Below, piece by piece: positions 8,895 to 18,438 of a stretch of 32,000 nt of DNA. The DNA is from Patescibacteria group bacterium. Lineage in GTDB: Bacteria; Patescibacteriota; Microgenomatia; UBA1400; JAHJAY01. The translations under genes were made by a program, and so were the position numbers. Position 1 is the stretch's first letter. Each line of letters begins with the position of its first letter. The notes beneath the pieces were generated by a model. It searched no databases and had not been told where the DNA came from. It was given only the letters and a program-made list of their open reading frames with translations. The stretch covers positions 1 to 32,000 of the forward strand of contig JAHJAY010000041.1 of assembly GCA_018813815.1 (NCBI GenBank), read 5' to 3'.

Positions 8895-9935
8895 ATGATT
8901 ATTCGGCCAATAACGCTTACAGAAAAAGACCAATTCAATCAGGTAGCCAATCATCCGCTTCAATCCTGGGAATGGGGCGAGTTTCGCAAGCAAACCGGCC
9001 TTAAAGTCAGACGCCTAGGCGCTTTTGACGGCAAACAACTTCAGGCCGGATATCAAATAACCATTCACCCAATTCCCAAAACTAATTTTACTATTGGCTA
9101 TTTCCCTCGCGGACCAATGCCTGATTCTACTATGATTAAGGCCTTAACAAGCATTGGCCAGGAAGAAAACTGCTTATTTATTAAACTCGAACCTGATGTT
9201 GCTTTACCAATTAATGCTCAAGCAAACAGTTCAGCTTGGCAAAATGTTGAAGATTTTCTAATCAAACATAATTGTAAGCCCGGCCGGCCCCTTTTTACTC
9301 AATATACTTTTCAAATTGACTTAACTAAAACTGAAAAAGAATTATTAACCCAAATGAAGCCAAAAACGCGCTACAATATCCGCCTGGCAGCCAATAAAGG
9401 TGTTAAAATAGTGCTTGACTCAACTGATCAAGGCTTTAAACAATATCTCCAGCTCCGATCAACAACTTTAAAACGCCAACAGTTTTTTGATCACACTGAA
9501 GATTATAAGTGGCAAATGTGGCACCAGCTCTACCCGGCCGGCATGGCTCATTTACTCAAGGCTGTTTATCAAAACCAAACCTTAGCCGCCTGGGTGTTAT
9601 TCACTTTTAAAAACAGGCTTTACTATCCTTACGGCGCCTCCTCCGACCAGTATCGCGAAGTCATGGCCTCTAACTTACTTATGTGGCAAGCCATGCGTTT
9701 TGGTAAAAAACAAGGTTGTCAAATATTTGATCTCTGGGGCAGCCTTGGCCCTGACCCTGATCCTCAAAACCCATGGTATGGTTTTCATCGTTTTAAAATG
9801 GGTTATGGCGGCCAATTGGTAAAATTCCTGGGCAGTTTTGACTTGGTGCTTAAACCCGGACTTTACCCTTTTTACCGCACAACAGAAACCATCCGTTGGC
9901 AATTTTTAAGACTCCTGGCCAAATGGAAAACCTGA
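8895..9935 (+). CDS. FemAB-family peptidoglycan interpeptide-bridge aminoacyltransferase
   Basis: MKPKTRYNIRLAANKGVKI, YYPYGASS, FDLWG, GFHRFKMGYGG. Its size (346 aa) fits FemX-like enzymes. Confidence 0.85.
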   Translation: MIIRPITLTEKDQFNQVANHPLQSWEWGEFRKQTGLKVRRLGAFDGKQLQAGYQITIHPIPKTNFTIGYFPRGPMPDSTMIKALTSIGQEENCLFIKLEPDVALPINAQANSSAWQNVEDFLIKHNCKPGRPLFTQYTFQIDLTKTEKELLTQMKPKTRYNIRLAANKGVKIVLDSTDQGFKQYLQLRSTTLKRQQFFDHTEDYKWQMWHQLYPAGMAHLLKAVYQNQTLAAWVLFTFKNRLYYPYGASSDQYREVMASNLLMWQAMRFGKKQGCQIFDLWGSLGPDPDPQNPWYGFHRFKMGYGGQLVKFLGSFDLVLKPGLYPFYRTTETIRWQFLRLLAKWKT

Positions 9936-10792
9936 ATAAATATCCAGACATCCGTCAGTCACCAGCCCATGCCCGTTTTATGAAATCAATTGGCTGGCAA
10001 GTTGCGACCATCAACAACATTCAGGCTTTTATCAAACGCTTGCCTTGTTTACCGTTTAGCTTAATGAAAATCCAGCGGTTTAACCAACCATTGGACAAAC
10101 AGGCTTTAGACAAAATCATTAAAAAGCATCGAGTGGTTTTTTTAAAAATCGAGCCTCAAATTCAACAGCCAACAAAACTCTCCGGTTTTAAAAAAGATCA
10201 TTGGCCACTTAGCCCGAGCCATACTCTTTGGCTGGATTTAAAACCAAGCGAAAAACAGCTCCTGGCTCAAATGAAAGCTAAAACCCGCTATAATATTCAT
10301 TTGGCTCAAAAAAAGGGCTTGAACATAAAAGTTCTCCGGGGCCAACAAGCAAGTCTAACCGACTTAAAAGCCTTTTATCAAATTTGGCGGCAGCGGGCCA
10401 GAAAAATCCACCTTAACCCGCCCCGTTTTGATCAATTAAAGTCATTAAAAACTGCTTTTGGGCAGGACTTTTTCCTGCTTTTAGCCAATCAAAACGAACA
10501 ATTAGTGACCGGTTTAATAATTTTAAAATATCAACAAGCCGCCTGGTATTGGCACAATGCCTCAACCAAATGCGGCATGAAGTTGTTTGCACCAACCTTG
10601 TTAACTTGGCAGGCAATCCAGCAAGCCAAAAACTCCGGTTGCCGGCTGTTTGATTTTGAAGGCATCTATGATCCGCGCTTTAGTCAACAAACCAAAAAAT
10701 GGCAAGGCTTCACTCGTTTTAAAACCGGATTTGGCGGTCAAAAAATTCAGTTCCCCGGCCCATTTGTCCGCTGGCTCAACCCTTTTAAATAA
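9923..10792 (+). CDS. FemAB-family paralog (shorter, about 289 aa)
   Basis: MKAKTRYNIHLAQKKGLNIKV, WYWHNAST, FDFEGI, GFTRFKTGFGG. ATG 9923 is preferred over TTG 9896 and overlaps the upstream gene by 13 nt. Confidence 0.8.
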   Translation: MENLNKYPDIRQSPAHARFMKSIGWQVATINNIQAFIKRLPCLPFSLMKIQRFNQPLDKQALDKIIKKHRVVFLKIEPQIQQPTKLSGFKKDHWPLSPSHTLWLDLKPSEKQLLAQMKAKTRYNIHLAQKKGLNIKVLRGQQASLTDLKAFYQIWRQRARKIHLNPPRFDQLKSLKTAFGQDFFLLLANQNEQLVTGLIILKYQQAAWYWHNASTKCGMKLFAPTLLTWQAIQQAKNSGCRLFDFEGIYDPRFSQQTKKWQGFTRFKTGFGGQKIQFPGPFVRWLNPFK

Positions 10793-10807: not shown

Positions 10808-12499
10808 ATGGCCAAAACTAAAATTGCGGTTTTTGATCTTACCGGCTGTGACGGCTGCCAATTTCACTTAATGTCTCTAAACGAACTTTTGCTGGATCTT
10901 TTCCAAGATTTTGAAATTAACTACTGGCGTCTGCTGACCGAACCAAGCAAAATTGATTGTGACATTGCTATTATTGAAGGTGCGGTTACTACCGAAGAGC
11001 ATATTAAGCTCTTAAAAGAAATTCGCCAAACTTCAAAAGTGGTTATTGCCATTGGCGCCTGCGCTTTAAACGGCAATGTTTTTGCTCAAATTCCCCAAAA
11101 GCAACGAGCTAAACTGGCAGCCAAAATTTACGATGCCAATTACCAGCTTAAAGCTAAATTTTTAGAGCCGGTCGCCAAATTTATTCAGGTTGATGAACAA
11201 GTGTCCGGCTGCCCGCCAAACATTGAGGATTTCAAAAAAATCCTGGCCAAATATCAAAAAGAGCCGGTTGTTTCCGCTCTCAAAACCGTCACTGTACCTG
11301 ATTATGTGGCTAAAATTGAGGGCCATGGTATTTTAAAAATTAATTTTAAAACTCAACAGGCCAGTTTTCAAGTTGAAGAAAGTGAGCGTTTAATTGAAGG
11401 CTTATTAATAGGTAAAAAATTCCAGCAAGCCCCATTTATTAATGCCCGGATTTGCGGCATCTGTCCGGTAGCTCACAATCTCTGTTCTTGGGCGGCAATT
11501 GAAAATGCTTATCAAGTTCAACCTCTATTGGCAGTGATTAATTTAAGAAAACTTTTATTGGCCGCTCAAACAATTAAAAGTCATGTGCTTCATCTTTTCT
11601 TTTTAGTTTTACCTGATTATGCCCAAGTTAAAGGCGGGATTGAATTGGCCACTAAATATCCGGCTGAGTTTCATTTAATGCTTAATATCAAACGTACGGC
11701 TGATCGGACAATGGAAATTGTTGGTGGCTCAAGCGCTTTTCCCACCACGACGATTTTAGGCGGCTTTGCTCAAATGCCGGATTTAATTGAACTTAAAAAA
11801 ATCAGCCAGTCAATTGAGGAAATCCTGGATGAAGCTGAAGATTTGGTTAAGCTTTTTGCTTCCCTGAAAATACCAAGCCTAACCACTCAAACCCGGCTTT
11901 TAACCACCAACCCGGTTAGTGGACAATATCCGCTTTATCCCGGTAGTTTAAATACCACAATTAAAGAAAGTGTTCAGTCAAAATCAACCGCCAAGCTTGG
12001 CATTTTGGCAGATGGTACGGTTATCAAAGTTGGCGCCTTAGCCCGCCTGTCCAGCTATGCTGATAATCTCCATTCACAAGCCAAAGAGCTTTGGCAACAA
12101 CACCCGGTTGACCCGCATAACCCTTTTGACAACAATTTGGCTCAAGCAATTGAAGTCTTACATTTCTTAGAAGAAATCCAACTCTTGGTTGAAGATTTAA
12201 CCAAAACCGACCTCAATCAAACAATTGGTTTAAAAACCCCGCCAAGCCTCAAACAGGCTGTTTCCGGTCAAGCCGCCTTAGAAGCTCCTCGGGGTGTTTT
12301 AATCCACCAGGTAACTCTTGAACCTGATGGCACTATTCAAAATTACAACATTATTCCGCCCACGCAAATTAATCTGGCTTCTTTAAACCATGAAGCTCAA
12401 ATTTTGGCTCAACAAAGTCAAACCCAAACCAACTTAAAAAAATCAGCCGAACAGCTTATCCGCGCCTTTGATCCCTGCATCACCTGCGCAGTGCATTAA
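10808..12499 (+). CDS. [NiFe]-hydrogenase, small-subunit (proximal-cluster domain only) fused to large subunit
   Basis: The N-terminal 150 aa are small-subunit-like: KIAVFDLTGCDGCQ (C14, C17), IAIGACALNG (C85), QVSGCPPN (C135). A linker of about 30 aa without Cys follows. The large subunit has AKIEGHG, RICGICPVAH (L1) and C-terminal DPCITCAVH (L2), with stop TAA immediately after the His. Confidence 0.9.
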   Translation: MAKTKIAVFDLTGCDGCQFHLMSLNELLLDLFQDFEINYWRLLTEPSKIDCDIAIIEGAVTTEEHIKLLKEIRQTSKVVIAIGACALNGNVFAQIPQKQRAKLAAKIYDANYQLKAKFLEPVAKFIQVDEQVSGCPPNIEDFKKILAKYQKEPVVSALKTVTVPDYVAKIEGHGILKINFKTQQASFQVEESERLIEGLLIGKKFQQAPFINARICGICPVAHNLCSWAAIENAYQVQPLLAVINLRKLLLAAQTIKSHVLHLFFLVLPDYAQVKGGIELATKYPAEFHLMLNIKRTADRTMEIVGGSSAFPTTTILGGFAQMPDLIELKKISQSIEEILDEAEDLVKLFASLKIPSLTTQTRLLTTNPVSGQYPLYPGSLNTTIKESVQSKSTAKLGILADGTVIKVGALARLSSYADNLHSQAKELWQQHPVDPHNPFDNNLAQAIEVLHFLEEIQLLVEDLTKTDLNQTIGLKTPPSLKQAVSGQAALEAPRGVLIHQVTLEPDGTIQNYNIIPPTQINLASLNHEAQILAQQSQTQTNLKKSAEQLIRAFDPCITCAVH

Positions 12500-13074
12500 A
12501 TGGTTTTTCTGGTATATTTCTCTAAATTATCCTTCTGCTTTTGAGTCAAAATCTGACAGCGCTGGCCCCAATGATAGGATATAAACTTACCGGCTTCTTC
12601 TTGCCAACTAATTTGACACAGCTGGCGGCGACGTTCGTCAAATTTAACCCGGCCAGTAACTGAACCAACTACCAAAACATGGAAACTGTGATGGGCTACT
12701 GCTTTTGGACCAATCCGGCGGCAACGTTTTTTGGCGGTTGATAAACTCAATAGTCCCGGCCGGGTAAATTCTTTAATAATTAAGTTTTTCAAATCATTAA
12801 CCCTGACCTGCTCTAAAAGCTCGTTGCCAAGCCAATAAGCTTCAACCACTTTTGCATTCAATGGATCAGTGATTCGGTTACTTTTGGCAATCAAAACATA
12901 ATAAGGATAAGCGGCTTCAAAAGTGGATAAAACCTGCCTAACCTTATTTTCATCAACTGCTTTACCCTTAAGAAAATTCTCCAGAATTTCACTCGTTTGT
13001 TTAATTTTTTGACCGCAAAAACCGAGACGGCAAGGTGGATAACTATAAAGCGCGGCCAGGCGCAAACCGGACAT
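12496..13074 (-). CDS. Conserved-looking hypothetical protein, Cys/His-rich, last gene of hypC operon
   Basis: 192 aa. ATG 13074 is preceded by AAGGAG with a 5-nt spacer and overlaps the eamA-like gene by 32 nt. Motifs are YPPCRLGFCG, AVAHHSFHV and two further Cys. I cannot name a family from the sequence. Confidence 0.65.
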   Translation of the reverse strand: MSGLRLAALYSYPPCRLGFCGQKIKQTSEILENFLKGKAVDENKVRQVLSTFEAAYPYYVLIAKSNRITDPLNAKVVEAYWLGNELLEQVRVNDLKNLIIKEFTRPGLLSLSTAKKRCRRIGPKAVAHHSFHVLVVGSVTGRVKFDERRRQLCQISWQEEAGKFISYHWGQRCQILTQKQKDNLEKYTRKTI

Positions 13075-13939
13075 AATCGCTCCTTTGCCGCAGTAAAAAA
13101 GTCACACCAACCCCAAATAAAAGCATGCCAAAAATTTGCTGACCAGCCGGAATCACACCCAAAACTGTTAAGGAAAGCAAGGTAGTAATCGGACTGCCCA
13201 AGGTTAAAATCGCTGTTCCTAAACTAACCGGCAGACGCTTTAAAGCCGAATACCAGCTAACTACATAACCTAACAAAAAAAGACTGGTAATAACAATGCC
13301 TCTGATTTGTACTAAGCCAAAATTGTCAAATTGCAACCATTGGCGATTAAACAGCAAAAACACCCCAATGAGCAATGAACCAAAACCCATCCGGCCAAAA
13401 GCCACAGTTAAAGCCGGTAACCTGCTTAAAAGCTTTTTAGACAATATATTTTCCAGTGCCCATAAAATTGTGGCTGCTAAAATTAAATTATCACCGGGCT
13501 GAAACTTAAAAGAAAAGGCTTTTAAAATAAACAAATTGCCTAAAATCAAAAACGCCGCCGCCCATAGAAATTTTTTATTTAATTTTTCTTTAAGCCAAAA
13601 CCAGCTAAACACGGAAACAAAAATAAACAGATTTTTATGAATCAAGGCGGCATTAACAGCCGTTGTTTGGCTTAAACCCTGGAAAAAAAGCAAAAAAGGT
13701 AAACTGCCGCCAATCAAACCAATCAAACCAAGATTTAACCAGTCTTTAAAACTTAAGGTTTTAAACCTGGACAGTTGTTGAGTCTGATATAAAATTAACC
13801 CCAACCCAATCGCCACTAAAACATTTTTACTCAGAGTAAAAACATAGGGATTTAAACCAGTAATTATCAGTTTGTTAATAAAAATAGATACGCCGGAAAT
13901 CAACGCAGTAATTAAAACCAGTAAAATTCCCTTAGACAT
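13043..13939 (-). CDS. EamA/DMT-superfamily transporter
   Basis: About ten hydrophobic segments arranged as two 5-TM halves. GGGAGG lies 5 nt upstream of ATG 13939, and the gene overlaps hypC by 8 nt. Confidence 0.8.
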   Translation of the reverse strand: MSKGILLVLITALISGVSIFINKLIITGLNPYVFTLSKNVLVAIGLGLILYQTQQLSRFKTLSFKDWLNLGLIGLIGGSLPFLLFFQGLSQTTAVNAALIHKNLFIFVSVFSWFWLKEKLNKKFLWAAAFLILGNLFILKAFSFKFQPGDNLILAATILWALENILSKKLLSRLPALTVAFGRMGFGSLLIGVFLLFNRQWLQFDNFGLVQIRGIVITSLFLLGYVVSWYSALKRLPVSLGTAILTLGSPITTLLSLTVLGVIPAGQQIFGMLLFGVGVTFLLRQRSDYVRFAPGRAL

Positions 13940-14153
13940 GATGGCCTCCCTGCTTAAACAAAGTTAAAGTTTCCCTGGCTTGCTGAGGAGAAACTTTATT
14001 GATCGCCGTATCTTGATAGGCCAATAAGTAATCGCCCACTTTAACTGTTTCATCCAAAGCGGAAACATCCAGCCAATGACAATGATCTGGCAGCTCAACT
14101 TTAGCTTGATGGCCTTTTATGGCAATTACTTTGCCGGGAATTCCTAAACACAT
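13932..14153 (-). CDS. hypC: Hydrogenase maturation chaperone HypC/HybG/HupF
   Basis: Starts MCLGIPGKVIAI, the invariant Cys2 motif. At 73 aa it matches the family size. Confidence 0.93.
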   Translation of the reverse strand: MCLGIPGKVIAIKGHQAKVELPDHCHWLDVSALDETVKVGDYLLAYQDTAINKVSPQQARETLTLFKQGGHHV

Positions 14154-14260: not shown

Positions 14261-14443
14261 TCAGTCTCTGCGGCAATCAATCTCTGGCTTAGGCGCGCTC
14301 GGCTGACCATGCTTAATCCATTGACCATGTTCACAAATCCAATCATCCTCACTCCCGCCAATTACAAACCTAAGCACCAGCCAAAGCATCAGGCCAACCG
14401 CCAAAAATTTTAATAAACCACCAAACTTCTTCTTATTTTTCAT
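14261..14443 (-). CDS. Small membrane-anchored protein (60 aa), function unknown
   Basis: MKNKKK, then one TM helix (LLKFLAVGLMLWLVLRFVIGG), then a short ectodomain with two Cys (DDWICEHGQWIKHG...IDC). It has its own leaderless-type promoter. Confidence 0.6.
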   Translation of the reverse strand: MKNKKKFGGLLKFLAVGLMLWLVLRFVIGGSEDDWICEHGQWIKHGQPSAPKPEIDCRRD

Positions 14444-14449
14444 TAATCT

Positions 14450-14458
14450 AAAGTATCA
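14450..14458 (-). promoter_or_regulatory. Extended -10 TGATACTTT, 6 nt before ATG 14443 (leaderless start predicted)
   Basis: The reverse complement of aaagtatca (14450-14458) is TGATACTTT, followed by spacer agatta and the ATG. Confidence 0.4.
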
Positions 14459-14477
14459 CATATGTTTATAGCCAAAA

Positions 14478-14684
14478 TCAATTATGAACCTTTTGTTCTT
14501 TAGCTACTGCTTCTCTAATTGAGTCCGACGGATAAATTGCTCTCAAAGAGTAGTGACGACTTTTAATGGTTTCTACTAGTTTTTCCTTGGCTTTCAAACT
14601 ATTTATTAAACGCCAATCCCTGGGGTAATCTCTGCGGCCAAAGCCCTTTAACATAATTTGCTCTTGAATTTTTTGAATAATCAA
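14478..14684 (-). CDS. Hypothetical small basic protein (68 aa from TTG 14684, or 58 aa from ATG 14654)
   Basis: The TTG start forms a TTGA overlap with the upstream stop. An alternative ATG at 14654 has a weak AAGAG upstream. I recognise no family. Confidence 0.5.
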   Translation of the reverse strand: MIIQKIQEQIMLKGFGRRDYPRDWRLINSLKAKEKLVETIKSRHYSLRAIYPSDSIREAVAKEQKVHN

Positions 14685-15580
14685 AACAGGTCTTTCCCTA
14701 CTATAATAATATAATAAACTGAAGGAATACCGCCTAACATTAATAGCTGTTCAAGCCAAAGGGCTTGTACAAAAGTTTCTCCAACTACTGCTTCATTTTC
14801 AATTTGATCCAAACAAAACTCAATACAGGCTTTTTCCGACTCACTAGGCTCTAAAGAAAGAGCTTTCAACATTTCTAATCTTTTTCTGTAATCAATTAAG
14901 CCCTCTAGTTCTATAGTTTCTAGATGCCAAAATAGATACCTGTCGCCAAAATCCGCCCTTCCCCGTCGTGTTTTAACGTAATCTTGATACTTATTTCTTA
15001 AGCGCTCAAAAAGATTGAGCCTTTCCTGTAATTCTTGAGTAGAGCTGGTTAAAACTACTTTTAAGTATGAATGGGCTTCGTCCAGAACACGTAGCGAATC
15101 TCGATCTGCCTTCACTTCATCTGTTTCTAGTTTTTCTAATAAAACCGGGGGTAGTTTATCAACCAAAGAAAAATAATAGTGATCTTCTGGTAAATAAATG
15201 GCTTGAACATTAGGAATCTTATAAGAAGGGAGCCATTGACCTTGACAATCTCTAGCTTCTCCAACAATACCATGCCCATGTCCTTGACGATCGAAATCAT
15301 TAATAAAAACACCCTTATTATCTTTTGTTATTCTATACATCCGAGTCTGATCTTCTATGCCTCCAGCTACATAAATACAAACTACGCCTTTATTGTGCTT
15401 AAATTCCTCGCGAGGATCTACTAAGTATCCTGCTAAAATATCATCAGTTAAAATCCCATTCTCGGGTGGATCGATCCTTAAATAACGAGTTTTAGAGAAA
15501 GGCGGTTGCACTACTAACTCATTGGCAAAAAGTCCTTCTCGGAAAATACTAATTGATGGCGCTGTAGGCTTTTCATCCAT
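14681..15580 (-). CDS. Hypothetical protein (299 aa), two-domain, possible C-terminal hydrophobic anchor
   Basis: Long clean ORF starting 14 nt after the helicase-nuclease stop, with no promoter-like element between them. The N-terminal part looks mixed alpha/beta (GVVCIYVAGGIEDQ, DRQGHGHGIVGE). The C-terminal half is helical and ends in LLMLGGIPSVYYIIIVG. No family recognised. Confidence 0.7.
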   Translation of the reverse strand: MDEKPTAPSISIFREGLFANELVVQPPFSKTRYLRIDPPENGILTDDILAGYLVDPREEFKHNKGVVCIYVAGGIEDQTRMYRITKDNKGVFINDFDRQGHGHGIVGEARDCQGQWLPSYKIPNVQAIYLPEDHYYFSLVDKLPPVLLEKLETDEVKADRDSLRVLDEAHSYLKVVLTSSTQELQERLNLFERLRNKYQDYVKTRRGRADFGDRYLFWHLETIELEGLIDYRKRLEMLKALSLEPSESEKACIEFCLDQIENEAVVGETFVQALWLEQLLMLGGIPSVYYIIIVGKDLF

Positions 15581-15594
15581 AATTTACTTACTAC

Positions 15595-18438
15595 TCATAC
15601 TGCCGGACAGAGCAGACGATAATCGCAAAACTTGCAAAGATAGCCGGGTTTGGCTGAAAAATCAAACTGTTGTATTTGCTTTCGGATAGCGAGAATGTCT
15701 TTTTTCGCTTCTTCTAATTGTTTTTTTGTCCGGGTGGTAGAAACTTTTTTTTGCTCATCCAAAAAATAAAAACTAAAAGTAATTTGTTCCGGTGTCCGGT
15801 TATAAATCCCCGGATCAGTTGCCGCTAAACCATAAATCGTCATCTGCATTGAGCGGTCAACTGTTTTTTGATCCATTAATTTACCGGTTTTATAATCAAT
15901 TATCTCAATTGCGCCGGTTTTTTTCTGATCTATCCGGTCAATTCGTCCTCCTAACCACAAATCCTGCGCCAATTTAATTTTAAAGCCATCTTCCAGGGCT
16001 AAAATTTTGGTTTGAGGATCAAAAGAATGTTGATAATAATCTTTAAACAGTTTTTTAGCTTGGCTATAAGCTTTTTGCTCGTGAGCTTTATTATCATAGC
16101 CTTCACTGATCCAATGTTGTTTTAATAACTTTAATAACTGTTTTAAAGACAACTCCTGGCCGTCTTTTAAAGCCTGATAAAAATCCCGCATCGCTTGATG
16201 CAGACTAGTACCAAAACTTTGAGCATGAGAACGCGGCGCCGGCAATTTTAAAATATGGCGGTATTTATATTGCAAAGGACAATTTTTAAAGGCTTCAATT
16301 TGAGAATAGGATAAATAGGTTATAGAAGGTGGGGTGCAGGAAATAGGTTTTTCTTTTACAGGTTTAAAATCAAACATTGATAGCTGATCTGCTGGCTGAG
16401 CTTTTTCCGGCTTAAACTCTTTACCCAAAGTTTCAAAAACAAACGGGCTAATCTTTTTTAATCGCTTAGCCTCACCATAAAATTTGCTTGCCGTCAGATA
16501 AACCCGATCTTTAGCCCGGGTTAAACCAACATAAAATAACCTGCGCTCTTCTTGTTCATGACTGTCGCCGATCGGTAAAATTTCTTTAACCAGCTTATCG
16601 GGAAGTGGAATTAGTCCCTGCCGCTGGCGACTGGGAAAACGCTCGTTAACCAAATTCACCAAAAAAACCACCGGAAATTCCAAACCCTTGGAAGAATGAA
16701 CGGTTAACAAATTAACGGCATTAACTTCCTGCCAATCACTATCGGTAGCCAAAGGCGATTCGCCTAACTCAAGTTTTAAGTCTAACCATTCAACTACGGC
16801 GAAAACCGAGGCGTCTTCATGCTCGGCTTCGTAAGTTTTTAGTCTGTCAAAAAATTTAGCCAAGTTCTGCACTTGCTGTTCTTTTTTTGCACTCGGCGGA
16901 TCAAGTAAAAACTGATACCAACCGCTTTTTTGAATAAAATCGAATAAAATCTCGCCCGCGGTTTGTTTAGGCAATTGTTTTAAATGACTCTGAATTAGCT
17001 TTACTAAATGACTGAATTTTTCTTTACCGCCAACAGACAATCCTTCTATGGCCTTATTTTTTTCCGCGGCTTCAAATAAACTTAAATTTTGCCGCCGGCT
17101 AAAATTACGCAAAACCGCTAAGTCCCGAGGGTTAAATTTAAAAACTGTCATAGTAGCCAATTTATAAAAAGCAATATCATCTTCAAAATTGTTTAACAAT
17201 TGTAAATAGGCAATCAGATTTTTTACTTCTTCCTGACGCAATAGTTGGCCTGGTCCTAAAAATTGCCAGGGAATTGCCTGACGCTTTAAAGCCCGGACAA
17301 AGGGTTCAGCATGATTGTTGGCTCGAACCAGTATGGCTATATCACCATAATTATATGTTTGAGTAGTAAGTTTCTTAATTTTCTTAATAACTAAATCAGC
17401 TTCATTTTCCACCCGATCAGTAAAAATAAACTTAATTTTTTCGCCCTTTATTTTCTTAATGCTTTTTAAGTTCTTACTAATGCCTAATTTGGACTCTAAA
17501 GTGTCCGGATTGTTATGCTGAATTACATCATAGGCTCGATCAAGAATTTCCTGGGTTGAACGATAATTTTTAAGCAAAGTTATGGTTTTTGCTTTTGGAT
17601 AGTCATCAATGAAGTTGAGAATGTTAGAAACCGCGGCGCCGCGAAATTTGTAAATTGACTGCGAATCGTCTCCTACAACCAAAATGTTCGGCTTACCCTT
17701 AGGCTGACCCAAAAGCTTAACTAATTCATACTGGGCAATGTTAGTGTCTTGAAATTCATCTACTAAAATATATTTAAATTGCTTTTGGTAGCGCTGTCGC
17801 ACATTTTTCCGGGTCTTAAAAAGCTGCAAACTATAACTAATTACATCAGCAAAATCCATCCGGCCGGCTTTTTCTTTAAGTTGCTGATAAGCTTTAAAAG
17901 CGCGCGCCAGCTCCAGATTTTTTTTAACTTCATCCTTTTCGGATTTTGCCCAATCAAGATATTCGCTGGGCGATATGTCCTCATCCCGCAAACGACTAAA
18001 GTAATTAATCAAGCCGGGTAAAAATTTACTCGGATTGCCACGCGGCCGGAAATAGTCAAGTTTTAAAGCAAACAAGTGCTGATTTAAAAACTGAATTGTT
18101 TCCGCTTCAGTCATTAAAACATATTTGGAATCCAACCCTATCTGCATCGCCTCACGCCGTAAAACCCGATCACAAAACGAATGAAAAGTGGAAATCCACA
18201 TTTGGGTATAACCATAAGGCATAATCTCATCCACCCGGGTTTCCATTTCCAAAGCCGATTTATGAGTAAAAGTTAAGGCCAGAATTTCGACTGGTTTTGC
18301 CAATTCCTGAGCAATCAAATATTTAATCCGCTCAGTCACCACCGTAGTTTTACCCGTACCGGCTCCGGCAATAATTAACAGCGGACCCTGACCGTGTTGA
18401 ATTGCCTGAAGCTGTTCAGTGTTAAGCTGCTTTTTCAT
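15595..18438 (-). CDS. UvrD-family helicase fused to C-terminal PD-(D/E)XK Cas4/AddB-like Fe-S nuclease
   Basis: Helicase motifs: AGAGTGKTT, DEFQDTN, GDDSQSIYKFRGA, KNYRS, TVHSSKGLEF, YVGLTRAKDRVYL. Nuclease motifs: CPLQYKY, GRIDRID, EIIDYKTGK, QMTIYGLA, CKFCDYRLLC (one plus three Cys pattern). ATG 18438 is preferred over TTG 18465 and overlaps rmuC by 17 nt. Confidence 0.9.
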   Translation of the reverse strand: MKKQLNTEQLQAIQHGQGPLLIIAGAGTGKTTVVTERIKYLIAQELAKPVEILALTFTHKSALEMETRVDEIMPYGYTQMWISTFHSFCDRVLRREAMQIGLDSKYVLMTEAETIQFLNQHLFALKLDYFRPRGNPSKFLPGLINYFSRLRDEDISPSEYLDWAKSEKDEVKKNLELARAFKAYQQLKEKAGRMDFADVISYSLQLFKTRKNVRQRYQKQFKYILVDEFQDTNIAQYELVKLLGQPKGKPNILVVGDDSQSIYKFRGAAVSNILNFIDDYPKAKTITLLKNYRSTQEILDRAYDVIQHNNPDTLESKLGISKNLKSIKKIKGEKIKFIFTDRVENEADLVIKKIKKLTTQTYNYGDIAILVRANNHAEPFVRALKRQAIPWQFLGPGQLLRQEEVKNLIAYLQLLNNFEDDIAFYKLATMTVFKFNPRDLAVLRNFSRRQNLSLFEAAEKNKAIEGLSVGGKEKFSHLVKLIQSHLKQLPKQTAGEILFDFIQKSGWYQFLLDPPSAKKEQQVQNLAKFFDRLKTYEAEHEDASVFAVVEWLDLKLELGESPLATDSDWQEVNAVNLLTVHSSKGLEFPVVFLVNLVNERFPSRQRQGLIPLPDKLVKEILPIGDSHEQEERRLFYVGLTRAKDRVYLTASKFYGEAKRLKKISPFVFETLGKEFKPEKAQPADQLSMFDFKPVKEKPISCTPPSITYLSYSQIEAFKNCPLQYKYRHILKLPAPRSHAQSFGTSLHQAMRDFYQALKDGQELSLKQLLKLLKQHWISEGYDNKAHEQKAYSQAKKLFKDYYQHSFDPQTKILALEDGFKIKLAQDLWLGGRIDRIDQKKTGAIEIIDYKTGKLMDQKTVDRSMQMTIYGLAATDPGIYNRTPEQITFSFYFLDEQKKVSTTRTKKQLEEAKKDILAIRKQIQQFDFSAKPGYLCKFCDYRLLCPAV

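What the first reader, a model, noticed from the sequence alone, without database searches (positions are those of the whole stretch)
10808..12499. Single-polypeptide [NiFe]-hydrogenase: truncated small subunit fused to large subunit, ending at the L2 histidine
One 563-aa ORF carries the four Cys of the small-subunit proximal [4Fe-4S] site: GCDGC, GACA and GCPP at aa 14, 17, 85 and 135. After GCPP only about 30 Cys-free residues precede the large-subunit AKIEGHG. The medial and distal cluster domain that normally wires electrons out of the enzyme is therefore absent. The large subunit has intact RICGICPVAH and DPCITCAVH nickel-binding motifs. The stop codon directly follows the His, so there is no C-terminal extension for an endopeptidase to cleave. 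That condition is known for H2-sensing and some energy-converting hydrogenases. No diaphorase, ferredoxin-like, cytochrome or membrane partner subunit is adjacent. If the enzyme is active, it would be a very reduced NiFe hydrogenase architecture whose electron partner is not evident here.
Basis: partly seen in the sequence, partly recalled or inferred. Interest (0 to 1): 0.75.

Follow-up and report, generated by a model that had tools for sequence, protein, structure and literature searches.

The report
Single-chain minimal NiFe hydrogenase (CPR)
This gene from an ultra-small Patescibacteria (CPR) bacterium encodes a hydrogen-handling nickel-iron enzyme whose two usual subunits are fused into one chain with only one of the usual three iron-sulfur clusters; the form is real and conserved, belongs to a clade already noted in 2020, and its activity and electron partner are untested.

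Summary
ORF 10808..12499 (+) encodes 563 aa: the N-terminal domain of a [NiFe]-hydrogenase small subunit with four proximal-cluster Cys, a Cys-free basic linker of about 30 aa, then a complete group-3b-like large subunit ending at the L2 His.

It is not an assembly artefact. More than 100 full-length homologue clusters (41-74% identity) from many Patescibacteria lineages share the architecture. All metal ligands are invariant in a 41-sequence alignment. Desulfocapsa-type MAGs carry the same architecture.

The nearest relatives are four-subunit CPR group-3b operons. Syntenic loci suggest beta and gamma were lost in place, and delta was truncated and fused to alpha.

The window has no Fe-S or flavin partner. 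An EamA transporter often lies beside them.

Ending at the His is common in this neighbourhood of group 3b, so it is not special to the fusion.

Jaffe et al. 2020 described this clade as "hyd2" (truncated small subunit, no beta/gamma, hypC nearby, function uncertain). Their text does not mention a fusion.

Most likely it is a free-standing cytoplasmic hydrogenase that exchanges electrons with ferredoxin or PFOR. I rate it a new variant of a known kind.

The parts
10808..12499 (+). Gene for the 563-aa fused small-large [NiFe]-hydrogenase (NCBI MBU0619310.1 / MBU1931109.1)
   Evidence: AlphaFold2 model has pLDDT 85 and pTM 0.88. Best fold and sequence matches are P. furiosus SHI alpha and delta.
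10808..11218 (+). Small-subunit N-terminal (flavodoxin-like) domain, aa 1-137, with the four proximal [4Fe-4S] ligands: C14 (10847-10849), C17 (10856-10858), C85 (11060-11062), C135 (11210-11212). There is no Tat signal.
   Evidence: Oxidored_q6 covers aa 14-148. It matches HydD/ShyD delta N-terminal halves only and SHI delta residues 1-144 of 261. All four Cys are invariant in 41 homologues.
11219..11308 (+). Linker, aa 138-167. It replaces the medial/distal-cluster domain and is Cys-free and basic.
   Evidence: Across 41 family members the stretch from GCP to IEGH is 31-38 aa, has one Cys in total and a mean net charge of +3.5. Model confidence is low at 165-172.
11309..12496 (+). Large (catalytic) subunit domain, aa 168-563. 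It holds IEGH (E171), the L1 motif R214-H223 (11447-11476), EAPRG (R495) and the L2 motif D555-H563 (12470-12496). The stop codon is at 12497-12499.
   Evidence: NiFeSe_Hases. HydA scores 207 bits and ShyA 196 bits. The PDB profile search gives E 4e-87 to SHI alpha. Foldseek gives TM 0.82-0.85 normalised to the target. The ligands are invariant.
12496..13074 (-). DUF6390 protein (192 aa), convergent with the hydrogenase gene and overlapping its 3' end by 4 nt. It is a probable hydrogenase maturation accessory with a HypC-like C-terminal domain. This copy lacks about 50 aa of the beta-barrel.
   Evidence: PF19927. It is present in 12 of 18 CPR fused loci and also beside four-subunit CPR operons. 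The alignment shows invariant C20, H129, H132 and C153. AlphaFold2 pLDDT is 95. Foldseek matches HypC structures. 26 of 44 members hit Pfam HupF_HypC. A natural HypC-DUF6390 fusion exists, P0137.
13043..13939 (-). EamA-family (DMT) transporter, 298 aa, often co-located with the hydrogenase genes
   Evidence: PF00892. It is found in 7 of 18 CPR fused loci and next to DUF6390 in four-subunit loci L014 and L015. Its substrate is unknown.
13932..14153 (-). HypC (73 aa, starts MCLGIPGKV and ends GGHHV), a [NiFe]-hydrogenase Fe(CN)2CO chaperone
   Evidence: PF01455, E 1.5e-16. It is present within about 2 kb in 16 of 18 CPR fused loci.

Best explanation
The gene encodes a catalytically competent, cytoplasmic, free-standing [NiFe]-hydrogenase of the group-3b lineage, in the CPR 'hyd2' clade. 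It arose by reduction of a four-subunit sulfhydrogenase-type operon. The beta (Fe-S) and gamma (FAD/NAD(P)) subunits were lost. The delta small subunit lost its medial/distal-cluster domain. The remaining proximal-cluster domain was then fused through a basic linker of about 30 aa to the N-terminus of the alpha subunit. Shown here: the architecture, the family-wide invariance of every metal ligand and of the catalytic Glu and Arg, the conserved linkage to HypC and DUF6390, and the absence of a linked redox partner. Inferred: H2 is made or split at the NiFe site, and electrons pass through the single proximal [4Fe-4S] cluster. With the covering domain gone, that cluster should lie near the surface and exchange electrons directly with a soluble low-potential carrier, either ferredoxin or pyruvate:ferredoxin oxidoreductase itself. 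In a fermentative CPR cell the likely direction is H2 evolution to dispose of reductant. Also inferred: the active site is installed by HypC together with DUF6390 and other Hyp functions encoded elsewhere or unknown, and because the chain already ends at the L2 His no endopeptidase step is needed.
For: The architecture and motifs are. More than 100 full-length homologue clusters at 41-74% identity carry both domains. C14, C17, C85, C135, E171, C216, C219, H223, R495, C557, C560 and the terminal H563 are invariant in 41 sequences, which argues for purifying selection on a working metal site. The AlphaFold2 model is confident overall (pTM 0.88), with low confidence only at cofactor-binding loops and the linker. 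The closest sequences and folds are P. furiosus SHI alpha and delta and T. kodakarensis HyhL. The nearest split relatives are four-subunit CPR operons. L017 (four-subunit) and L007 (fused) sit in the same PfkB-FBA-PGK ... HypC-GAPDH-TIM locus. A split intermediate with a 166-aa small subunit exists in L018. No delta C-terminal domain is found in 24 fused loci (best E 0.023, against 1e-20 to 1e-28 in control loci). There is no ferredoxin motif in the window. There is no recurrent redox neighbour, whereas HypC occurs in 16 of 18 and DUF6390 in 12 of 18 loci. As an experimental precedent, the engineered alpha-delta dimer of P. furiosus SHI is highly active with methyl viologen, no longer uses NADPH and takes electrons directly from POR (PMC3200332). 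The linker and the whole protein are basic, which is compatible with docking an acidic ferredoxin, although this is weak evidence.
Against: No member of this clade has been expressed or assayed. The SHI alpha-delta precedent still has all three clusters. No hypD, hypE, hypF or hypB was seen within 10 kb of any locus, and I could not inspect whole genomes, so it is unproven that these cells can build the Fe(CN)2CO group. A ferredoxin partner is not consistently linked: small ferredoxins lie 6-9 kb away in only 2 of 18 loci.
Confidence: 0.55

Rival explanations
1. The fused protein is the catalytic module of a larger complex whose electron-transfer or diaphorase partners are encoded elsewhere in the genome. 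One candidate pairing is a thioredoxin-reductase-like flavoprotein with a small ferredoxin, which would keep the enzyme NAD(P)-linked as in canonical group 3b.
For: Jaffe et al. report a PF07992 flavoprotein family and an Fe-S family near a subset of hyd2 genes. L005 and L006 have a 63-aa 2x[4Fe-4S]-type ferredoxin and a Pyr_redox_2 protein 5-9 kb upstream. The four-subunit locus L014 has Pyr_redox_2 and glutaredoxin directly after alpha.
Against: These genes are not recurrent. Clustering neighbours within 10 kb in 24 fused loci yields only HypC, DUF6390 and EamA as shared families. The window's 32 kb has none. The Desulfocapsa copies are orphan genes with no conserved neighbour.
Confidence: 0.2
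2. It is an H2-sensing or otherwise non-energy-metabolic protein. It would bind and split H2 slowly, like regulatory hydrogenases that also lack a C-terminal extension, and would signal to or reduce a specific target rather than carry bulk electron flux.
For: The lack of a C-terminal extension is shared with regulatory hydrogenases (established knowledge). The protein has a single cluster and no obvious redox chain. In L032 the gene follows a universal stress protein gene.
Against: Its nearest relatives are group 3b enzymes, not group 2 sensors. The extension-less C-terminus is a clade trait shared with four-subunit catalytic-type operons. No histidine kinase or regulator is consistently linked.
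Confidence: 0.1
3. It is a non-functional relic. The organism cannot mature the site or has no partner, so the ORF persists without hydrogenase activity.
For: Only HypC-type maturation genes are seen nearby. The window's DUF6390 has lost about 50 aa of its barrel. CPR genomes are highly reduced.
Against: All ligands are invariant across sequences as low as 41% identical, and across two phyla. The frameshifted copies seen (L012, L013, L053) are rare exceptions. Linkage to HypC is maintained in 16 of 18 loci.
Confidence: 0.08
4. The fusion is an assembly or frameshift artefact joining two separate genes.
For: A few close homologues are annotated as two ORFs (P0112 in L012, P0113 in L013).
Against: In those two cases the break falls inside the conserved KVDEKIPGCPP motif (L012) or at a run of unknown residues (L013), so the split versions are the artefacts. 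The uninterrupted fused ORF recurs in more than 100 clusters, in 13 Patescibacteria species-representative genomes and in 5 Desulfocapsa-type MAGs. The identical protein was found on independently assembled contigs from different sequencing runs.
Confidence: 0.01

Closest known systems
[quoted passage not shown] 2020, BMC Biol 18:69, PMC7304191)
   Same: A Patescibacteria-specific, long-branch relative of group 3b. The small subunit is truncated (mean 164 aa there, about 137 aa plus linker here). hypC is nearby. No beta or gamma subunits are adjacent. Function is stated to be uncertain.
   Different: The paper treats the small subunit as a separate protein family and does not use the words 'fused' or 'fusion'. 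Here, and in more than 100 homologue clusters, small and large parts are one polypeptide. A genuinely split form (166 aa + 416 aa, L018) is the minority in my sampling. I could not place the window sequence in their tree, because the held supplementary alignments are cut.
Pyrococcus furiosus soluble hydrogenase I (group 3b sulfhydrogenase, alpha-beta-gamma-delta; PDB 9nez, 9nf0, 9e15) and T. kodakarensis HyhL (5yxy)
   Same: These are the best sequence and fold matches for both parts: alpha at E 4e-87, 32% identity and TM 0.82-0.85; delta residues 1-144. L1, L2, IEGH and EAPRG are the same. Both are cytoplasmic.
   Different: There are no beta and gamma subunits, so no NAD(P)H site. Delta residues 145-261, which carry the medial and distal clusters, are absent. 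The P. furiosus precursor is 428 aa with a 4-aa tail after the His at 424, whereas this chain stops at the His. Scores are far below the NCBIfam equivalog cut-offs (207 against 880; 196 against 700).
Engineered alpha-delta heterodimer of P. furiosus SHI (Hopkins et al. 2011, PMC3200332; structure 9e15)
   Same: It is a two-module hydrogenase without the diaphorase. It is active with methyl viologen, does not use NADPH and accepts electrons directly from pyruvate ferredoxin oxidoreductase. This is the best functional analogy.
   Different: It is man-made, has two chains, and its delta keeps all three clusters.
Four-subunit CPR group 3b operons ('hyd1'; for example loci L014, L015, L016, L017)
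   Same: These are the closest natural relatives of the large-subunit part (40-44% identity). They share the extension-less C-terminus and the accessory genes HypC, DUF6390 and EamA. In one case they occupy the same glycolytic locus.
   Different: They have a full-length delta (248-263 aa) plus beta (Fer4_22) and gamma (FAD/NAD-binding) subunits, and their genes are separate.
Group 4 energy-converting hydrogenases and complex I (HycG/EchC/NuoB-type small subunits)
   Same: The small subunit carries only the proximal [4Fe-4S] cluster (same Pfam family, PF01058). Some members, such as Ech and CooH, lack the C-terminal extension (established knowledge).
   Different: Those are membrane-bound, multi-subunit and hand electrons to a HycF/NuoI-type ferredoxin subunit. 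The window protein scores only 16-29 bits on NuoB models, against 84-110 bits on sulfhydrogenase delta models. It has no membrane partners.

Membership tests
[NiFe]-hydrogenase large subunit (catalytic) | L1 RxCGxCxxxH and L2 DPCxxCxxH motifs supplying four Cys ligands to the Ni-Fe site | tested here: met
   RICGICPVAH at 214-223 and DPCITCAVH at 555-563. Both are invariant in 41 homologues.
[NiFe]-hydrogenase large subunit (catalytic) | Catalytic or proton-transfer residues: the Glu of the N-terminal IEGH motif and the Arg of EAPRG | tested here: met
   E171 and R495 are invariant. The functional roles assigned to them come from established knowledge of other hydrogenases.
[NiFe]-hydrogenase large subunit (catalytic) | Actual NiFe(CN)2CO cofactor and H2 turnover | not testable with these tools
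   This needs expression, metal analysis, FTIR and activity assays.
[NiFe]-hydrogenase small subunit | Four Cys binding the proximal [4Fe-4S] cluster in a flavodoxin-like N-terminal domain | tested here: met
   C14, C17, C85 and C135 lie within Oxidored_q6 aa 14-148.
[NiFe]-hydrogenase small subunit | C-terminal domain with medial and distal clusters (groups 1-3) | tested here: not met
   The alignment stops at position 151 of 261 of HydD and at 144 of 261 of SHI delta. The linker is Cys-free. No such domain occurs elsewhere in 24 fused loci.
Group 3b (sulfhydrogenase / NADP-coupled bidirectional) hydrogenase | Large subunit most similar to HydA/ShyA/HyhL among hydrogenase classes | tested here: met
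   NCBIfam gives HydA 207 and ShyA 196 bits, against FrhA 121 and VhuA 92. The PDB profile search gives SHI alpha 4e-87, against Mvh 4e-56, SH 4e-45 and Frh 1e-42. No maximum-likelihood tree with HydDB references was run.
Group 3b (sulfhydrogenase / NADP-coupled bidirectional) hydrogenase | Heterotetramer with a beta (Fe-S) subunit and a gamma (FAD, NAD(P)-binding) diaphorase subunit | tested here: not met
   Neither is in the 32-kb window or within 10 kb in 24 fused loci. Both are present in the hyd1 loci L014, L015 and L017.
Group 3b (sulfhydrogenase / NADP-coupled bidirectional) hydrogenase | Reaches the curated equivalog score for HydA or ShyA | tested here: not met
   207 bits against a cut-off of 880, and 196 against 700.
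CPR 'hyd2' clade (Jaffe et al. 2020) | Patescibacteria host, truncated small subunit of about 164 aa, hypC nearby, no adjacent beta or gamma | tested here: met
   Source names are Patescibacteria, Microgenomates, Paceibacterota and others. The small part is about 137 aa plus linker. HypC is at 13932..14153. See for the published description.
CPR 'hyd2' clade (Jaffe et al. 2020) | Falls inside the published hyd2 branch of the large-subunit tree | tested here: inconclusive
   Their alignment files are cut in the held copy and motif searches found nothing. My own rough NJ tree nests the fused forms within the extension-less CPR clade.
Group 2 regulatory (H2-sensing) hydrogenase | Large subunit of the HoxC/HupV type, full-length small subunit, linked histidine kinase | tested here: not met
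   The best matches are group 3b. The small subunit is truncated. No kinase is consistently linked.
Group 4 energy-converting hydrogenase | NuoD/HycE-like large subunit with membrane subunits and a HycF/NuoI-type partner | tested here: not met
   No such neighbours were found. NuoB models score 29 bits or less.

The most novel reading that the evidence does not exclude
This could be the smallest natural [NiFe]-hydrogenase system. One chain would carry the Ni-Fe site and a single [4Fe-4S] cluster, and would work without any dedicated electron-transfer subunit by docking ferredoxin or PFOR directly. A reduced, non-canonical machinery would mature it: HypC plus the HypC-like Cys/His protein DUF6390, with no protease step and possibly without a standard HypD/E/F set. 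The unit would be portable as a single gene between phyla, from CPR to Desulfocapsa-type bacteria.
Probability: 0.3. Interest if true: 0.8.

Novelty: new variant of a known kind. Interest (0 to 1): 0.58.

Why it matters
[NiFe]-hydrogenases are normally built from at least two chains and a three-cluster wire, and they need proteolytic maturation. That complexity hampers their use in engineered H2 production. A natural, conserved single-chain form with one cluster and no processing step would be a ready-made minimal hydrogenase for expression and design. It would also show how much of the electron relay is dispensable.

For biology, it bears on how ultra-small, host-dependent Patescibacteria balance fermentative redox and contribute to H2 cycling in groundwater and sediments. 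It also identifies DUF6390 as a candidate new hydrogenase maturation factor. The four-subunit, truncated split and fused forms found in related loci look like steps of reductive evolution.

Tried and rejected
- Assembly or frameshift artefact: rejected. The two-ORF relatives (L012, L013) are themselves broken inside a conserved motif or at a run of Ns.
- A medial/distal-cluster domain encoded separately nearby: rejected. tblastn with four delta C-terminal domains found nothing significant in 24 fused loci, while hyd1 control loci gave 1e-20 to 1e-28.
- A ferredoxin-like ORF in the window: none has the CxxCxxCxxxC motif.
- A conserved unknown partner among the unannotated neighbours (the 299-aa, 68-aa and 60-aa ORFs at 14261..15580 and their counterparts in other loci): no cross-locus homology, and no Pfam hits.
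- The extension-less C-terminus as a hallmark of the fusion: rejected. It is shared by hyd1 and many nearby 3b relatives.
- DUF6390 as the electron partner: unlikely. It has only two invariant Cys, a HypC-like fold, and it also accompanies complete four-subunit operons.
- hhalign of DUF6390 against a single HypC sequence was uninformative. Profile against profile gave only 57% probability, E 1e-4, over 32 columns.
- Literature searches for DUF6390, for a fused CPR hydrogenase and for hyp genes in Patescibacteria found nothing relevant.
- The whole-genome hypD/E/F, ferredoxin and PFOR complement could not be examined. Only flanks of 10 kb or less are retrievable, and the look-up caps are exhausted.
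Full report
**1. The observation**

The ORF at 10808..12499 (+) starts with ATG and encodes 563 aa. It ends ...DPCITCAVH, followed directly by TAA.
- Cys residues lie at 14, 17, 51, 85, 135, 216, 219, 226, 557 and 560.
- Pfam finds Oxidored_q6 (aa 14-148) and NiFeSe_Hases in the same chain.
- NCBIfam aligns aa 3-147 with positions 5-151 of the 261-position sulfhydrogenase delta model. It aligns aa 162-563 with positions 6-422 of the 426-position sulfhydrogenase alpha model.
- The 30 residues between GCPP and AKIEGHG contain no Cys.
- Base composition is the same as in the neighbouring genes.
- The other window genes are typical of a Patescibacteria (CPR) genome: FemAB x2, PcrA/UvrD, LytR, DUF2298, PMT_2 glycosyltransferases, MetRS, TatD and RmuC.

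**2. The fusion is real and conserved**

A search of 5.8 billion proteins gave 519 hits. Of the best 120 clusters, 107 are 535 aa or longer and carry both Pfam domains, at 41-74% identity. Where named, they come from Patescibacteria, Microgenomates, Paceibacterota, Nealsonbacteria and Falkowbacteria.
- The identical protein (NCBI MBU0619310.1 / MBU1931109.1) was found on independently assembled contigs from different sequencing runs.
- In a 41-sequence alignment the following are invariant: C14, C17, C85 and C135; E171-G-H173; R214, C216, C219 and H223; E492-A-P-R495-G; and D555-P-C557...C560-x-V-H563. Every sequence ends at that His.
- The segment from GCP to IEGH is 31-38 aa in all 41 sequences. 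It has one Cys in total and a mean net charge of +3.5.
- Two close relatives annotated as two ORFs (L012, L013) are broken inside the conserved KVDEKIPGCPP motif or at a run of unknown residues. They are damaged copies of the fused gene.
- A scan of one genome per species found uninterrupted fused genes in 13 Patescibacteria genomes. It also found five in Desulfocapsa / Desulfobulbaceae-type MAGs (585 aa, 36-41% identity, same four Cys, same linker, same terminal His), plus a sixth that is frameshifted.

**3. What it is related to**

A profile of the family matches P. furiosus soluble hydrogenase I best.
- SHI alpha: E 4e-87. SHI delta residues 1-144 of 261: E 5e-37.
- T. kodakarensis HyhL scores close to SHI alpha (E 1.9e-86).
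- Weaker matches: Mvh (4e-56), NAD-reducing SH (4e-45) and Frh (1e-42).

The AlphaFold2 model has pLDDT 85 and pTM 0.88. Confidence is low only at the two cofactor loops and the linker. It superposes best on SHI alpha, with TM 0.82-0.85 normalised to the target and 31-32% identity. The lineage is therefore group 3b, but scores are far below the curated equivalog cut-offs.

An exhaustive HMMER search of 1.8 billion cluster representatives shows fused forms down to 41% identity. Below that come separate large subunits of 415-425 aa at 40-44% identity. I looked up the contigs of three of these.
- Two belong to delta-alpha loci with a full-length delta: L017 is a complete beta-gamma-delta-alpha operon, and the short contig L016 has a 263-aa delta.
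- Loci L014 and L015, reached through DUF6390, are also complete four-subunit operons: beta with Fer4_22, gamma with FAD_binding_6/NAD_binding_1, and delta of 256-259 aa.
- The third (L018) has a separate, truncated small subunit of 166 aa with four Cys, 80 nt upstream of a 416-aa large subunit.

Locus L017 (four subunits) and locus L007 (fused) share the same surroundings: PfkB-FBA-PGK on one side and HypC-GAPDH-TIM on the other. This points to loss of beta and gamma, and to truncation and fusion of delta, in place. A rough NJ tree nests the fused forms inside this CPR clade. A few fused and split forms interleave, so the number of fusion events is unresolved.

**4. The C-terminus**

The four-subunit CPR relatives and many nearby 3b-like large subunits also stop at the L2 His. 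More distant ones carry 4-20 extra residues. The P. furiosus precursor is 428 aa with the His at 424. Absence of an extension is therefore a trait of the wider clade, not of the fusion.

**5. Neighbours**

No beta, gamma, ferredoxin, cytochrome or membrane subunit is in the 32-kb window.
- DUF6390 (12496..13074)
- an EamA transporter (13043..13939)
- HypC (13932..14153)

In 18 CPR loci with the fused gene, HMMs built here find HypC in 16 and DUF6390 in 12. Clustering finds EamA in 7 and no other shared family. The delta C-terminal domain is absent from all 24 fused loci. The unannotated neighbours are not homologous between loci. Small ferredoxins occur 6-9 kb away in only two loci. The Desulfocapsa-type copies are orphan genes with no conserved neighbour.

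**6. DUF6390**

The family has invariant C20 (LGFCG), H129 and H132 (in the PHHSFHV motif) and C153 (CRxGWG). Its C-terminal GDWVSFHW motif resembles the GDYVL.H motif of HypC.
- AlphaFold2 (pLDDT 95) gives a helical N-domain of about 150 aa with no PDB match, followed by a beta-barrel and helix.
- The barrel matches HypC structures 2z1c and 3vys/3vyt/3vyu, with TM 0.70-0.79 normalised to the target.
- 26 of 44 members hit Pfam HupF_HypC at E <= 1, the best at 7e-6.
- Profile-profile comparison gives 57% probability and E 1e-4.
- A natural HypC-DUF6390 fusion exists, P0137.
- The family also flanks complete four-subunit operons.

I read it as a hydrogenase maturation accessory rather than an electron carrier. 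The window's copy, and an 87%-identical one (P0122), lack about 50 aa of the barrel.

**7. Mechanism**

*Shown:* the architecture, the ligand conservation, the linkage to maturation-type genes, and the lack of a linked redox partner.

*Inferred:* the enzyme is active. The proximal cluster is the only relay and exchanges electrons directly with ferredoxin or PFOR. The likely direction in a fermenter is H2 evolution.

The best precedent is the engineered alpha-delta dimer of P. furiosus SHI. It is highly active with methyl viologen, no longer uses NADPH, and accepts electrons directly from POR (PMC3200332). That dimer keeps all three clusters, so the precedent is partial.

The rival explanations, with their weights, are given in the rivals section:
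- a complex with partners encoded elsewhere
- a sensor
- an inactive relic
- an artefact (refuted)

**8. What is known**

Jaffe et al. 2020 (PMC7304191) defined two CPR clades of 3b-related hydrogenases. [quoted passage not shown] It has hypC nearby and no proximal beta or gamma, and its 'function remains uncertain'.

The words 'fused' and 'fusion' do not occur in that paper. Other searches found no description of a single-chain form. JGI's automatic names for some homologues list both parts. A 2024 study modelled only the four-subunit CPR complex (PMC10811913).

The window gene therefore fits the published description of hyd2. What this analysis adds:
- the single-polypeptide state is the dominant form of the clade
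- the same architecture occurs in Desulfocapsa-type bacteria
- syntenic loci show the likely steps of reduction
- DUF6390 appears to be a HypC-like accessory

**9. Limits**

- No activity data exist for this clade.
- Whole genomes could not be inspected for hypD/E/F, PFOR or ferredoxin.
- The tree is a distance tree without reference classes.

**10. Verdict**

The feature is real and conserved. It is a new variant of a known kind, of moderate to high interest (0.58).

Noticed in passing
window 12496..13074 (-); alignments A2 and A3; loci L003, L005, L010, L014-L016: DUF6390 (PF19927) has a novel helical N-domain with invariant Cys and His residues (C20, H129, H132) followed by a HypC-like OB domain that begins with an invariant Cys (C153). 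It flanks both four-subunit and fused CPR hydrogenase genes, and a HypC-DUF6390 fusion exists (P0137). It is a candidate new hydrogenase maturation factor. The window's copy and P0122 lack about 50 aa of the barrel.
   Followed up: partly
L032-L036 and L053 (Desulfocapsa / Desulfobulbaceae-type MAGs): The same fused, truncated, extension-less hydrogenase (585 aa, 36-41% identity) occurs as an orphan gene in sulfur-disproportionator-type Thermodesulfobacteriota. It has no HypC, no DUF6390 and no conserved neighbour. In L032 it follows a universal stress protein gene. This implies transfer between phyla; the direction is unknown.
   Followed up: partly
L017 7242..11177 compared with L007 10001..12669: The same glycolytic locus (PfkB-FBA-PGK ... 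HypC-GAPDH-TIM) holds a four-subunit 3b operon in one CPR genome and the fused single gene in another. This looks like a before-and-after view of the reduction. The placement among glycolysis genes hints at a role in fermentative redox balance.
   Followed up: partly
window 13043..13939 (-); L005, L014, L015 and others: An EamA/DMT transporter sits next to DUF6390 in 7 of 18 fused loci and in four-subunit loci. Its substrate is unknown; nickel or another maturation-related solute is only a guess.
   Followed up: no
window 13932..14153 (-); L017 10905..11177; L005 11692..11916: CPR HypC proteins carry a conserved DHxHW motif, and some have His-rich C-terminal tails (L017 ends ...HTEETDHEHTHDHGHAHSHTH, L005 ends ...SEHHH, the window copy ends ...GGHHV). 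This suggests a possible added nickel-binding role.
   Followed up: no
L017 10102..10827, L018 3476..4189, L007 11759..12445: A second family of proteins of about 230-240 aa with a HypC-like C-terminal segment (weak HupF_HypC hits; L017 against L018 is 27% identical, E 3e-14) lies beside hydrogenase genes where DUF6390 is absent.
   Followed up: partly
L014 12786..13025 and 16119..17837: A four-subunit CPR operon is followed by a 79-aa mini-HypA. A few kb further on lies a 572-aa NodU/TobZ-type carbamoyltransferase (Carbam_trans_N/C), a family with the same domain types as HypF. No canonical HypD/E/F was seen within 10 kb of any hydrogenase locus examined.
   Followed up: no
L012 741..2433; L013 185..1875; L053 9983..11753: Three database copies of the fused gene are split by a frameshift or by Ns and are annotated as separate small and large subunits. 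Such records could mislead surveys of fused versus split forms.
   Followed up: yes
window 14261..15580 (-): Three ORFs downstream of HypC on the minus strand (between it and the helicase-nuclease gene) have no Pfam match and no homologue in the other hydrogenase loci: 60 aa with a predicted membrane helix, 68 aa, and 299 aa.
   Followed up: partly
window 8895..10792 (+): Two tandem FemAB-family (peptidoglycan interpeptide-bridge transferase-like) genes lie immediately upstream of the hydrogenase gene. The second ends 15 nt before its ATG, so co-transcription is possible.
   Followed up: no
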